Positions 22,243-23,622 of a stretch of 57,904 nucleotides of DNA are shown here, one piece after another. The notes beneath the pieces were generated by a model. That model saw only the letters and a list, made by a program, of their open reading frames with translations. It ran no database searches and was not told the DNA's origin. Within the stretch, counting starts at the first letter, position 1, and the number at the start of each line of letters is the position of its first letter. The DNA lies in assembly GCA_964472495.1 (NCBI GenBank), contig CAYYLD010000003.1, forward strand, positions 1 to 57,904, read 5' to 3'. The translations under genes were made by a program, and so were the position numbers. The stretch comes from an uncultured Candidatus Saccharibacteria bacterium (lineage in GTDB: Bacteria > Patescibacteriota > Minisyncoccia > Portnoybacterales > UBA2143).

Positions 22243-22344
22243 ACCAGCCGCTTGATTACTTGACACTTATCAGTCAATTTGTTATTTTTCAGTTAATTTA
22301 AGTTCCTTGTCAATCATGGATTGAAACTTTTTGAGGAGGGGAAG

Positions 22345-23376
22345 ATGGGAAAATTACACCATATTATTGAGGCTCAACAGTTTGATAGAAGGGCGCTTCA
22401 AGAAATTTTCTTATCAGTCGATAAGATGGCTGATTGGATGGTTCAAGAAGATATGTGGATGAAGAAAGAAGCTCAGGTCAGTCTTTCAGCCGAGGAGAAA
22501 AAGGAGAGGCAGAGAAGCAGATTGGAGATGCAAAGAGGGGTCAAGGGAAAAAGGATGTTTTCCGTTTTTTACCAGTCAAGTACCCGGACCCGGGCCTCCT
22601 TTGAGACAGCCATGAAAATCTTGGGCGGTGAGGTAGCTGTTTCTTTCAGCAGCGAACAGGAATTTTCTAATACAGCTAGAAAAAAGGCCTTAGAGGATAC
22701 GGTGAGGGGATTGGGACTTCTCTTCCCGCACGTCATTGTCTTACGTCATCCACATGCAGGGGCGGCTGAAAGAGCCAAAGAAGTTTCTTCCGGGGTGCCG
22801 ATTATCAACGCTGGTGATGGGCCCAATCAACATCCAACCCAAGCTATCGCTGATCTCTACACAATTCGGAATCTCTTCAAGCAGATAGACGGTTTGTCTA
22901 TAGCCTTTGTTGGCAACTTGTTTAGCAGTCGGGAAATCAGATCTTTATGTTATTTGTTAGCTGAATATGACGTAGACATTTATGCTGTCTCGCCAGATAT
23001 GTTAAAGCTGCGTCAGGATGTTAGGGACTGCCTGAATAAGGCGGCTGGTGTTCGTCTATTTGAGGTTGATAATTTGGAAGAAATAGTTGGTAAAGTCAAA
23101 GTACTTTATCAGGCTCGTATTCCGGGAAAGGCTTCGGGGGGCGATACGTTCGTTGTTGAAGATCAGATGTTTTCATATCGGGAAATCAAAAAGAGATATA
23201 CCATCAATGACCAGGTTTTGAAAAAGCTGCTCAAGGGGTCAATTGTCATGGATTTATCTTTCCGGCCGGAAGATTCTTTAGATCTCAAGAATGTCCCGTT
23301 GGTCTGTTATACACAAATTCAGAATGGCCTTTTCGTCCGAATGGCTCTCTTAAAGATGATCTTGGATTCAATATAA
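22345..23376 (+). CDS. Divergent aspartate carbamoyltransferase (PyrB)-like protein
   Basis: STRT, LRHP, NAGDG and HPTQ retained; RxQ and HPLP motifs degenerate; start at ATG 22345. Confidence 0.75.
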   Translation: MGKLHHIIEAQQFDRRALQEIFLSVDKMADWMVQEDMWMKKEAQVSLSAEEKKERQRSRLEMQRGVKGKRMFSVFYQSSTRTRASFETAMKILGGEVAVSFSSEQEFSNTARKKALEDTVRGLGLLFPHVIVLRHPHAGAAERAKEVSSGVPIINAGDGPNQHPTQAIADLYTIRNLFKQIDGLSIAFVGNLFSSREIRSLCYLLAEYDVDIYAVSPDMLKLRQDVRDCLNKAAGVRLFEVDNLEEIVGKVKVLYQARIPGKASGGDTFVVEDQMFSYREIKKRYTINDQVLKKLLKGSIVMDLSFRPEDSLDLKNVPLVCYTQIQNGLFVRMALLKMILDSI

Positions 23377-23406: not shown

Positions 23407-23622
23407 GTGGCCGAAAATGAGATAGGAGATTATCAATGCCCTAATTGCCTAGAGAATGGTATTTCCTTCGGAGAATTGGAGACTGAATTTGATCGCCCCC
23501 GTCTTCCACGGCTTATGATTAAATTTTATTGCCGTCGTTGTCGAAAAGAATTTGCGGTGGAAGCTGGGGTATGGATCTATCAGGTTAGTCTGGTTTGGTT
23601 TCTTAGTGGGAAATATCCATGA
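23407..23622 (+). CDS. Small putative zinc-ribbon protein
   Basis: CPNC...CRRC; SD-like GAAGGAGG upstream. Confidence 0.55.
   Translation: MAENEIGDYQCPNCLENGISFGELETEFDRPRLPRLMIKFYCRRCRKEFAVEAGVWIYQVSLVWFLSGKYP

What the first reader, a model, noticed from the sequence alone, without database searches (positions are those of the whole stretch)
22345..23376. PyrB-like protein that keeps the carbamoyl-phosphate site but has lost aspartate-site motifs
Seen: STRT, R(HP) and HPTQ are retained. The RxQxER motif reads RIPGK, HPLPR reads DLSFR, the KGES lysine aligns to R, and there is an extra ~25-aa charged N-terminal segment. No pyrC, carAB or pyrI lies nearby, and the gene has its own promoter-like TTGACA. 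Established: RxQ binds aspartate and HPLP shapes the active site in ATCases, and CPR bacteria mostly lack de novo pyrimidine synthesis. Inference: a carbamoyltransferase with a new acceptor, or a pseudo-enzyme.
Basis: partly seen in the sequence, partly recalled or inferred. Interest (0 to 1): 0.55.

Follow-up and report, generated by a model that had tools for sequence, protein, structure and literature searches.

The report
Remodelled orphan PyrB-like protein, tiny bacterium
An ultra-small (Saccharibacteria-like, CPR) bacterium that has no genes for making pyrimidines or carbamoyl phosphate still keeps, under purifying selection, a copy of the pyrimidine enzyme aspartate transcarbamoylase; its phosphate-binding half is intact but its second-substrate half has been rewritten, including a loop motif that I recall as conserved in all characterised family members, so it very probably no longer does the textbook reaction.

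Summary
It keeps S52-T53-R54-T55-R56, S80, R105, H134-P-T-Q137, and also R167 and R229 (E. coli numbering). It has Q231P, E233K, R234A, T168E, D162N, K84R and H265-P-L-P268 replaced by D-L-S-F. There is also a 26-aa helical-hairpin insertion and a 7-aa insertion in the Asp loop.

Only two further species-level relatives are known (65-67% identity). They share every new motif.

- dN/dS against the congener is 0.13-0.18, like the neighbouring genes.
- The promoter and 5'UTR are conserved.
- The gene sits in the same syntenic slot as canonical-motif ATCases in sister genomes, so it is a maintained positional orthologue and not a decaying gene.
- The 630-kb, 99%-complete genome has no second pyrB, and no CPSase, carbamate kinase, pyrC, pyrD, pyrF, acetyl-phosphate or ureido-compound genes.

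Best reading: a neofunctionalised, non-ATCase protein that still binds a phosphate-bearing ligand. Whether it is a ligand-binding pseudoenzyme (my lean) or a transferase with a new acceptor cannot be settled in silico.

The scan has already reported the same kind of object in another genome (e1-5045206). I class it as a new variant of a known kind, with moderate interest.

The parts
22260..22288 (+). Promoter-like site: TTGACA, 17-nt spacer, extended -10 (TG-n-TATTTT)
   Evidence: 10 of 12 matches. Conserved in the congener G027 and upstream of clade-C ATCase genes in four other genomes, while synonymous sites of the coding regions are saturated.
22289..22344 (+). Conserved 5' leader with TGTCAA (the inverted copy of the -35 hexamer) and Shine-Dalgarno GAGGAGG at 22334-22340
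22345..23376 (+). CDS of the remodelled PyrB orthologue (343 aa, P0001)
   Evidence: The identical protein is recorded on 9 contigs from NCBI, JGI and Logan.
22450..22527 (+). Charged insertion of about 26 aa (aa ~36-61) that turns helix 1 into a helical hairpin
   Evidence: Alignments. AF2 gives H15-44 and H49-63 with pLDDT ~95. About half of it is shared with clade B. It is the least conserved region within the clade (38% invariant).
22579..22593 (+). S79-T-R-T-R83, the carbamoyl-phosphate/phosphate-binding motif (Ec 52-56), retained
   Evidence: invariant in the clade.
22663..22692 (+). 80s/CP loop, aa 107-116 (F-S-N-T-A-R-K-K-A-L). F and S80 are kept. K84 is replaced by R, and G85-E86-T87 by K-K-A
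   Evidence: The loop varies within the clade: R, K, or a 4-aa deletion. K114 (Ec 86) is invariant. AF2 pLDDT is ~70.
22741..22752 (+). L-R134-H-P (Ec R105), retained
22831..22842 (+). H163-P-T-Q166 (Ec 134-137), retained; it is followed by A-I-A instead of A-L-L
22912..22944 (+). G-N191-L-F-S-S-R196-E197-I-R-S. R167 is kept; D162 becomes N and T168 becomes E
23116..23130 (+). R258-I-P260-G-K262. R229 is kept, Q231 becomes P and E233 becomes K; the next residue is R234 replaced by A
23137..23157 (+). 7-aa insertion (G-G-D-T-F-V-V) in the Asp (240s) loop, modelled as part of a small beta-hairpin
   Evidence: AF2 gives E268-271 and E274-277 with pLDDT 63-72. G-G-D-x-F-x-V is invariant in the clade.
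23251..23265 (+). D303-L-S-F-R307 in place of H265-P-L-P-R269
   Evidence: M-D-L-S-F-R-P is invariant in the clade. AF2 pLDDT is ~60 here.
23407..23622 (+). Downstream 71-aa four-Cys zinc-ribbon gene (GTG start, SD GAAGGAGGG). It is a syntenic companion of the ATCase slot, and a functional link is not shown
   Evidence: There is no Pfam family, hhalign against E. coli PyrI gives probability 16% over 21 columns, and the best fold match is the NrdR ribbon at Z 4.7. It is also present in genomes without any ATCase gene.

Best explanation
The gene is the positional orthologue of pyrB in a Saccharibacteria-like CPR genus that has no carbamoyl-phosphate source and no other pyrimidine-synthesis gene.

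Shown:
- After a burst of change on its stem branch, the protein has been held by purifying selection in a new form.
- The N-domain phosphate/carbamoyl-phosphate pocket (S52, T53, R54, T55, R56, R105, H134, Q137, S80) and the two C-domain arginines (R167, R229) are invariant.
- Rewritten and then fixed: Q231, E233, R234, T168, D162, the whole H-P-L-P loop, and the Asp loop (7-aa insertion).
- The catalytic K84 position is variable within the clade: R in this protein, K in the congener, and a 4-aa deletion in a third lineage.

Inferred:
- It is no longer an aspartate transcarbamoylase.
- It still binds a phosphate-bearing ligand in the preserved pocket.
- The rebuilt pocket recognises something other than aspartate.

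My lean: it works as a ligand-binding, catalytically dead or nearly dead 'pseudo-ATCase' trimer. For example, it could be a sensor or buffer for a nucleoside monophosphate such as UMP. In the plant enzyme UMP is held by the equivalents of R54, T55, R105, H134 (phosphate), R167 (ribose) and R229 (base), all of which are kept here. The PLP loop and CP-loop residues that also touch UMP are changed. The residues needed only for aspartate binding and carbamoyl transfer are the ones that were replaced.
For: Fold and family:
-. The TIGR00670 score of 207 bits is below its 237-bit cut-off.

Residue states:
-.
- All 15 retained ligand residues and all 7 new pocket residues are invariant in a clade where 59% of positions are invariant.

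Selection:
- Omega is 0.13-0.18, within the neighbours' range of 0.05-0.35.
- Amino-acid identity is 66.7%, against 70-85% for the neighbours.

Expression signals:
- Promoter, leader and SD are conserved.

Burst of change, then conservation:
- The clade's stem is 0.62-0.75 changes per site, against 0.08 for the nearest canonical clade.
- Clade support is 100/100.

Orthology by position:
- The gene order unk433, Memo/AMMECR1, ATCase, Zn ribbon, DUF72, sigma-70, MFS, PolX is shared with loci that carry canonical-motif ATCases.

No pathway in the genome:
-.

Plant ATCase contacts for PALA and UMP:
- PMC7878868, read.

Rarity of losing the HxLP loop:
- Among about 250 family representatives, none of the full-length sequences had lost all four residues.
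Against: - No ligand was tested. The UMP idea is an analogy to the plant enzyme.
- The PLP loop that touches the uracil ring in the plant complex is also changed here.
- H134, Q137 and T55, which polarise the carbamoyl carbonyl, are strictly kept. A lysine (K114, Ec position 86) is invariant in the 80s loop. Both facts fit a still-active transferase.
- As far as I know, every divergent branch of this superfamily characterised so far has proved to be an enzyme with a new acceptor, not a pseudoenzyme (my recollection, not tested here).
- Canonical-motif ATCases in sister genomes also lack any recognisable carbamoyl-phosphate source. Absence of CPSase or carbamate kinase therefore does not by itself argue against catalysis.
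- Only three species-level sequences exist, so the conservation statistics are thin.
- AF2 confidence is lowest in the remodelled loops.
Confidence: 0.4

Rival explanations
1. It is an active transferase (or phosphorylase) of the ATCase/OTCase superfamily with a new second substrate. Carbamoyl phosphate, or in the reverse direction phosphate, binds the intact N-domain site. The rebuilt C-domain pocket (E197, P260, K262, D303-L-S-F, 7-aa hairpin) takes an amine or ureido compound other than aspartate or carbamoyl-aspartate. This could be one lacking the alpha-carboxylate or carrying a cationic group, since two new acidic residues (E197, D303) appear in the pocket.
For: - All residues that bind and polarise carbamoyl phosphate are strictly retained, along with R167 and R229.
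- The new pocket residues and the loop insertion are fixed rather than drifting.
- An invariant lysine at Ec position 86 could replace K84.
- Precedent, from my own knowledge: AOTCase, SOTCase, PTCase and YgeW-type enzymes arose by re-tooling the second-substrate pocket.
- Sister genomes keep canonical ATCases without a recognisable CP source, so CP or a ureido substrate may come from the host.
Against: - The genome has no CPSase, carbamate kinase, agmatine or arginine deiminase, CN-hydrolase, dihydroorotase or dihydropyrimidinase-type gene that could supply or use a carbamoyl compound.
- The H-x-L-P loop is entirely replaced. Its backbone positions the carbamoyl nitrogen (L350 in the plant enzyme). 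By my recollection it is kept in all characterised members.
- The K84 position is not conserved: R, K or deleted.
- No neighbouring gene suggests a substrate.
Confidence: 0.3
2. It is still a working, if unusual, aspartate transcarbamoylase. R167 and R229 hold aspartate, and the lost contacts are compensated by new residues.
For: - The best family match is ATCase and the best structures are ATCases.
- R167 and R229 are kept.
- Q231 is not universal among family representatives: K, E, H, S and R all occur.
- It occupies the pyrB slot of its relatives.
Against: - Its score is below the equivalog cut-off.
- 30 of 120 near-invariant ATCase positions are switched, concentrated in the Asp loop, the PLP loop and the CP loop.
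- The HPLP motif is fully lost. By my recollection the single P268A change in E. coli (PDB 1EZZ, listed) already impairs the enzyme.
- E50 and R234, the domain-closure partners, are both lost.
- There is no pathway to use carbamoyl-aspartate and no CP source.
Confidence: 0.12
3. It is a relic in slow decay after loss of the pyrimidine pathway. It would be an open frame not yet broken, with no function.
For: - The pathway partners are absent.
- Its amino-acid identity to the congener is the lowest of ten syntenic genes, 66.7% against 70-85%.
- The 80s loop and the N-terminal insertion are variable.
Against: - Omega is 0.13-0.18, with dS of 1.4-1.7.
- The frame is intact in three lineages and on at least 12 contigs.
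- The new motifs are invariant.
- Promoter, leader and SD are conserved.
- A 630-kb genome under strong reduction would be expected to delete a useless gene, as G032 has done at the same slot.
Confidence: 0.05

Closest known systems
Plant-type, UMP-inhibited aspartate transcarbamoylase (Arabidopsis PYRB; PDB 6YPO, 6YS6, 6YW9; Bellin et al. 2021, PMC7878868)
   Same: - Best sequence match (E 1.6e-59) and best fold match (TM 0.80/0.87).
- Same two-domain fold.
- Same STRTR, R105, HPTQ, R167 and R229.
- Same 'E-F-S' start of the CP loop, with the Phe that the paper shows is needed for UMP binding.
   Different: - Q312 (Ec Q231) is replaced by P.
- The P349-L-P351 loop is replaced by L-S-F, and the preceding His by Asp.
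- K166 (Ec K84) is replaced by R.
- It has an extra helical hairpin and a 7-aa Asp-loop insertion.
- It has no pathway context.
- Neither activity nor UMP binding has been tested.
Canonical-motif ATCases of related CPR genomes (clade B: P0004-P0009 and G033; clade C: 10 genomes of the same family)
   Same: - Same syntenic slot, and for clade C the same promoter and leader.
- Clade B is the most similar group (46-55% identity by BLASTP or MAFFT) and shares part of the N-terminal insertion.
- These genomes also lack CPSase and carbamate kinase.
   Different: - Clades B and C keep K84, T168, Q231, E233 and HPLP.
- Clade B sits directly behind a DHO_dh (pyrD-type) gene.
- The stem branch of the remodelled clade is 8-9 times longer than that of clade B.
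Transcarbamylases with other acceptors (OTCase, PTCase, N-acetyl- and N-succinyl-ornithine TCases, YgeW)
   Same: Same superfamily. The logic is the same: a conserved CP half-site combined with a re-tooled second-substrate half-site.
   Different: - NCBIfam scores for these families are far below their cut-offs (16-93 bits against 281-559 bits).
- By my recollection those enzymes keep an H-x-L-P loop and occur with a CP source; here the loop is gone and no CP source exists.
- The D-x-x-x-S-M-G and H-C-L-P motifs are absent from the sequence.
Inactive dihydroorotase-like PyrC' of Pseudomonas ATCase complexes (from my own knowledge, not tested here)
   Same: It is a precedent for a pyrimidine-pathway enzyme fold that is retained as a non-catalytic protein.
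   Different: PyrC' has a different fold and still serves an active pathway as a structural subunit. Here the pathway itself is absent.

Membership tests
ATCase/OTCase superfamily (Pfam PF02729 + PF00185) | Both domains score above the gathering thresholds, and the protein has the two-domain fold | tested here: met
   OTCace_N scores 112.9 bits (cut-off 29.9) and OTCace scores 45.4 bits (cut-off 29.4). The AF2 model has pTM 0.89, and ATCase structures are the top fold matches.
Aspartate carbamoyltransferase catalytic chain, PyrB (NCBIfam TIGR00670 / NF002032 equivalogs) | Score above the curated equivalog cut-off | tested here: not met
   207.3 bits against 236.95 for TIGR00670, and 186.9 against 263 for NF002032.
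Aspartate carbamoyltransferase catalytic chain, PyrB | Carbamoyl-phosphate site: S52-T53-R54-T55, R105, H134, Q137 (E. coli numbering) | tested here: met
   All are present and invariant in the clade.
Aspartate carbamoyltransferase catalytic chain, PyrB | Aspartate carboxylate ligands R167, R229 and Q231 | tested here: not met
   R167 and R229 are present. Q231 is Pro in all clade members. The plant equivalents R248, R310 and Q312 bind the two carboxylates.
Aspartate carbamoyltransferase catalytic chain, PyrB | K84 from the 80s (CP) loop of the adjacent chain | tested here: not met
   It is Arg in this protein, Lys in P0002, and removed by a 4-aa deletion in P0003 and P0271.
Aspartate carbamoyltransferase catalytic chain, PyrB | H265-P-L-P268 loop (the backbone of L267 contacts the carbamoyl nitrogen) | tested here: not met
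   It reads D-L-S-F in all clade members. The L350 contact is described in PMC7878868.
Aspartate carbamoyltransferase catalytic chain, PyrB | Genomic pathway context: a CP source plus pyrC, pyrD, pyrE and pyrF | tested here: not met
   There is no CPSase_L_D2, AA_kinase/arcC, pyrC_multi, DHO_dh or OMPdecase in a 99%-complete genome. pyrE was not searched.
Aspartate carbamoyltransferase catalytic chain, PyrB | Catalysis of CP + L-aspartate to N-carbamoyl-L-aspartate | not testable with these tools
   This needs an enzyme assay or complementation of a pyrB mutant.
OTCase / PTCase / AOTCase / YgeW families | Family-specific HMM score above the cut-off | tested here: not met
   The best is OTCase TIGR00658 at 93 bits against 281. 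PTCase scores 67 against 500, and YgeW scores 16-19 against 453-500.
PyrI regulatory chain, zinc domain (PF02748), for the downstream 71-aa ORF | Sequence or fold similarity to PyrI_C | tested here: inconclusive
   There is no PF02748 hit even at E<=10, while E. coli PyrI scores 67.5 bits in the same run. hhalign gives probability 16% over 21 columns around the second CxxC. No PyrI appears among the VIA-align matches, and the best is the NrdR ribbon at Z 4.7. The ORF also occurs in genomes without an ATCase.

The most novel reading that the evidence does not exclude
This would be the first branch of the ATCase/OTCase superfamily to be maintained by selection without the H-x-L-P loop and without any carbamoyl-phosphate metabolism in the cell. 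It could be a non-catalytic sensor or buffer for a phosphorylated metabolite (UMP-type nucleotide binding inherited from a plant-like, UMP-inhibited ancestor). Alternatively it could be an enzyme with a new donor/acceptor pair acting on a host-derived compound. Either way it would show how an epibiotic CPR bacterium repurposes the last remnant of a lost pathway.
Probability: 0.3. Interest if true: 0.7.

Novelty: new variant of a known kind. Interest (0 to 1): 0.5.

Why it matters
Transcarbamylases are a textbook family. As far as I know, every characterised member keeps the same carbamoyl-phosphate half-site and the H-x-L-P loop. A member held under selection with that loop replaced, in a cell with no carbamoyl-phosphate source, is a natural experiment on what else this fold can do.

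It also bears on a wider puzzle seen here. All 15 ATCase-carrying genomes in this CPR order, most of them with canonical active sites, lack CPSase and carbamate kinase. The role of 'pyrB' in these epibionts is therefore unclear in general. Genome-based calls of 'pyrimidine synthesis present' that rest on a pyrB annotation (JGI names a relative, P0003, 'aspartate carbamoyltransferase catalytic subunit') would be wrong for this clade.

The clade is very small: three species-level lineages among 1.84 billion cluster representatives. That limits its reach.

Tried and rejected
Contexts were obtained through the genome search, the search for related loci and the fetch from genomes instead. The DNA of P0003 and P0271 could not be fetched, so dN/dS rests on one pair.

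2. Metagenome and genome pattern scans found no further member beyond G027. The all-against-all representative search found only the P0002 cluster, plus a 152-aa fragment identical to the query's own C-terminus; the next hit was at 45% identity.

3. Mini-PyrI idea for the downstream zinc ribbon. The 'CxxC-x-K-E-F' knuckle looked like E. coli PyrI, but Pfam, hhalign and the fold search gave no support. The ribbon also persists in genomes with no ATCase (G032; G057, where it lies next to an OMPdecase gene). It is not an obligate partner.

4. Acyl-phosphate donor idea (acetyl phosphate in place of CP). The genome has no acetate kinase or phosphotransacetylase.

5. Catabolic ureido-compound route. 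The genome has no carbamate kinase, agmatine deiminase, arginine deiminase or CN-hydrolase. The only large amidohydrolase is of the MTA/SAH-deaminase type, not a dihydroorotase.

6. Operon logic. The neighbours (Memo-AMMECR1 fusion, DUF763, DUF72, sigma-70, MFS, PolX) are syntenic across the family whichever ATCase clade is present, and they give no substrate hint.

7. Strict sisterhood of the remodelled clade and clade B. Support was 90 SH-aLRT in a first quick tree. It was only 38 in a second quick tree and 32/41 in the careful tree, where a long-branch sequence intrudes. The relationship rests on highest identity and the shared partial insertion.

8. The wide alignment misplaced the clade's own Q231 and HPLP columns because of the insertion. 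I used it only for the other sequences.

9. Literature searches for ATCase in Saccharibacteria or CPR, and for transcarbamylase pseudoenzymes, found nothing specific.
Full report
**1. What is there**

window:22345-23376(+) is an intact 343-aa ORF. It has a strong Shine-Dalgarno sequence (GAGGAGG, 22334-22340) and a promoter-like TTGACA, 17-nt spacer and extended -10 at 22260-22288. Pfam finds both transcarbamylase domains. NCBIfam's best match is the ATCase equivalog TIGR00670, but at 207 bits it is below the 237-bit cut-off. All OTCase, PTCase, AOTCase and YgeW models score far lower.

The nearest solved structures are Arabidopsis PYRB (E 1.6e-59), then archaeal, E. coli and human ATCases. 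An AlphaFold2 model built on a 15-sequence alignment has pLDDT 87 and pTM 0.89. It superposes best on Arabidopsis ATCase (TM 0.80/0.87).

**2. Residue-level check**

I fetched E. coli pyrB and aligned it with the protein and its relatives (printed positions are +1 relative to mature numbering).

Retained residues:
- S52-T53-R54-T55-R56
- S80
- R105
- H134-P-T-Q137
- R167
- R229
- R269

Changed residues:

| E. coli position | State in this protein or clade |
|---|---|
| E50 | Q (R in the two relatives) |
| K84 | R |
| G85-E86-T87 | K-K-A |
| D162 | N |
| T168 | E |
| Q231 | P |
| E233 | K |
| R234 | A |
| H265-P-L-P268 | D-L-S-F |

There are also three length changes:
- A 7-aa insertion after position 235, modelled as a small beta-hairpin.
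- A 1-aa deletion with altered residues in the D-P-R-A-x-Y-F segment.
- A 26-aa charged insertion that turns helix 1 into a helical hairpin (pLDDT ~95).

However, the two arginines that hold the aspartate carboxylates are kept. The plant equivalents are R248 and R310 (PMC7878868).

**3. Is it a family or a one-off?**

A word-indexed search of 5.8 billion proteins and a full HMMER search of 1.84 billion cluster representatives found only two more lineages:
- P0002, 66-67% identical, from a MAG labelled uncultured Candidatus Saccharibacteria.
- P0003 and P0271, 65% identical, from two JGI contigs.

All share R-I-P-(G/S)-(K/R), M-D-L-S-F-R-P, G-N-L-x-x-x-R-E-I-R, the G-G-D-x-F-x-V insertion and the long N-terminal insertion. 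The 80s loop is the exception. K84 is R, K, or removed by a 4-aa deletion that appears on two independent contigs.

Against the 117 nearest ATCases, 30 of the 120 columns that are >=93% conserved are switched in all three members. Nineteen of these are fixed to a single new residue. They cluster in the segment before and within the CP loop, after HPTQ, around R167, in the Asp loop, and from the PLP loop onward.

Within the clade 59% of positions are invariant. All 15 retained ligand residues and all 7 new pocket residues are invariant. In a survey of about 250 family representatives, none of the full-length sequences had lost all four residues of the H-P-L-P loop, and P268 is almost universal. 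Q231 is more variable.

**4. Decay or selection?**

Against the congener G027 the gene has dN 0.22, dS 1.4-1.7 and omega 0.13 (NG86) or 0.18 (YN00). Nine syntenic neighbours give 0.05-0.14 (NG86) and 0.06-0.35 (YN00). dS is near saturation, so the values are approximate, but omega is far from 1.

Amino-acid identity is 66.7%. That is the lowest of the ten genes but close to the others, which range from 70% to 85%.

The promoter, leader and SD are about 88% identical between the two genomes, although synonymous sites are saturated.

In trees the clade has 100/100 support. Its stem is 0.62-0.75 changes per site, against 0.08 for the nearest canonical clade, and it has ordinary internal branches. 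This is a burst of change followed by conservation, which is not the pattern of decay.

**5. Genomic setting**

The assembly is 630 kb in 23 contigs and is estimated 99% complete. It has:
- One OTCace_N gene only.
- No OMPdecase, DHO_dh, CPSase ATP-grasp or AA_kinase/carbamate kinase.
- No dihydroorotase. The one candidate is an MTA/SAH-deaminase-type amidohydrolase.
- No acetate kinase or phosphotransacetylase.
- No agmatine deiminase, arginine deiminase or CN-hydrolase.

**6. Relatives and orthology**

Fifteen of the 59 genomes of the same order carry an ATCase-type gene:
- The remodelled clade (A) is in G000 and G027.
- A canonical-motif clade B is in G033 (53%, P0004-P0009 type).
- A canonical-motif clade C (32-34%, about 375 aa) is in ten genomes, including the same-genus G026.
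- Two further canonical forms occur in another family.

All three clades occupy one syntenic slot: unk433, Memo/AMMECR1, ATCase, zinc ribbon, (DUF763), DUF72, sigma-70 on the minus strand, MFS, PolX. In G033 a DHO_dh (pyrD-type) gene replaces Memo/AMMECR1 and directly precedes the ATCase.

The promoter and 5'UTR are shared between clade A and clade C loci, although the coding regions are only about 30% identical. This includes G026, which is in the same genus as G000. The coding sequence was therefore exchanged in place at some point.

The remodelled gene is the positional orthologue of pyrB and not an extra paralogue. Its closest sequence relatives are clade B, by identity and by a shared partial N-terminal insertion. 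Strict sisterhood is only weakly supported.

No genome in the order has a bona fide CPSase. Carbamate kinase occurs only in two genomes that lack an ATCase gene. Even the canonical-looking ATCases here are therefore orphans.

**7. Mechanism**

Shown:
- The phosphate/carbamoyl-phosphate pocket and R167/R229 are conserved.
- The second-substrate side has been rewritten and then fixed.
- Selection is purifying.
- The pathway is absent.

Inferred: the protein is not an ATCase, it still binds a phosphate-bearing ligand, and its second pocket recognises something else.

The plant ATCase paper (PMC7878868) shows how UMP occupies the active site. Its phosphate is held by R136, T137, R187 and H215, its ribose by R248 and its base by R310. 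Those six residues correspond to ones retained here.

The same paper shows that UMP also contacts the PLP loop and CP-loop residues S162, A164 and A165, and these are largely changed here.

It further shows that Q312, the L350 backbone and K166 serve aspartate binding and carbamoyl transfer. Those are the positions changed here. The CP loop of clade B (E-F-S-S-A-A-K-G-E-T) is identical to the plant loop, including the Phe that UMP inhibition requires.

I therefore lean (0.4) to a ligand-binding pseudoenzyme derived from a UMP-inhibited ancestor.

The main rival (0.3) is an active transferase or phosphorylase with a new acceptor. In its favour are the strict retention of the carbonyl-polarising residues, an invariant lysine at position 86, two new acidic pocket residues (E197, D303) and precedent in the superfamily. 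A still-working ATCase (0.12) and a decaying relic (0.05) are unlikely.

**8. The downstream zinc ribbon**

A 71-aa ORF (23407-23622) has a C-P-x-C ... C-x-x-C-x-K-E-F pattern and a conserved I-L-K-x-K-Y-P end. It follows the ATCase gene in clades A, B and C.

It is not recognisably PyrI. It also persists at the same slot in genomes that have no ATCase. I treat it as a syntenic companion of unknown function.

**9. Relation to earlier scan notes**

A follow-up on another genome (e1-5045206) described a remodelled ATCase-like gene with a zinc-ribbon partner. It reached the same two conclusions: the active site is rewritten, including the universal motif, and the ribbon is not a recognisable PyrI. 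I saw this note only after I had reached both conclusions from my own calls (12, 42, 68, 69).

**10. Verdict**

- It is a new variant of a known kind and a very small clade.
- Function is unresolved but testable by simple biochemistry.

Noticed in passing
window:23407-23622 (+); also L005:1270-1482(-), L006:2495-2713(+), L011:2435-2656(+), L018:895-1089(-): A 59-74-aa four-Cys zinc-ribbon protein (C-P-x-C ... C-x-x-C, ending I-L-K-x-K-Y-P) is conserved just downstream of the ATCase slot in all three ATCase clades. It is also present in genomes without an ATCase, and in G057 it lies next to an OMPdecase gene. It has no Pfam family, and its best fold match is the NrdR N-terminal ribbon (Z 4.7).
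   Followed up: partly
window:22243-22344 compared with L018:2255-2345(-), L011:1213-1308(+), L009:2560-2640(-): The same promoter (TTGACA, 17-nt spacer, TGnTATTTT), leader and SD precede ATCase genes that are only about 30% identical. This includes two species of one genus (G000 with clade A, G026 with clade C). It looks like in-place replacement of a coding sequence behind a fixed promoter.
   Followed up: partly
Order-level census: All 15 ATCase-carrying genomes of this CPR order lack CPSase and carbamate kinase, although most of their ATCases have canonical active sites. Pyrimidine genes are patchy: a few genomes have pyrC-like, DHO_dh and OMPdecase genes. The role of these orphan ATCases is unexplained.
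   Followed up: partly
L006:571-1497 (+) and L006:1501-2481 (+) (G033): In the genome with the nearest canonical ATCase, a DHO_dh (pyrD-type) gene sits 3 bp upstream of the ATCase gene, in the place where Memo/AMMECR1 lies in other genomes. The same genome has a second DHO_dh but no pyrC, pyrF or CPSase.
   Followed up: no
window:22260-22312: The -35 hexamer TTGACA and a downstream TGTCAA form an inverted repeat that spans the promoter and leader. Both arms are conserved in the congener. It could be an operator.
   Followed up: no
Whole genome G000: There is no AA_kinase-family gene at all, so no recognisable PyrH UMP kinase, in a 99%-complete genome.
   Followed up: no
window:23623-23660: A 9-bp-arm inverted repeat (GGCCTTTGG ... 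CCAAAGGCC) lies directly after the zinc-ribbon stop codon and overlaps the start of the DUF763 gene. It has no T-tract and was not called as a terminator.
   Followed up: no
G044:C7:4675-8180 and G030:C3:68-3721: Single open frames of 841-880 aa carry both DHO_dh-like and OMPdecase-like matches, next to a short (346-aa) pyrC-like gene. These may be fused pyrimidine enzymes in CPR genomes.
   Followed up: no
Family f1 genomes: An ATP-grasp protein of about 500 aa, with weak CPSase_L_D2 matches limited to its first ~70 profile positions, occurs in most genomes of the family. It is absent from the genus of the window.
   Followed up: no
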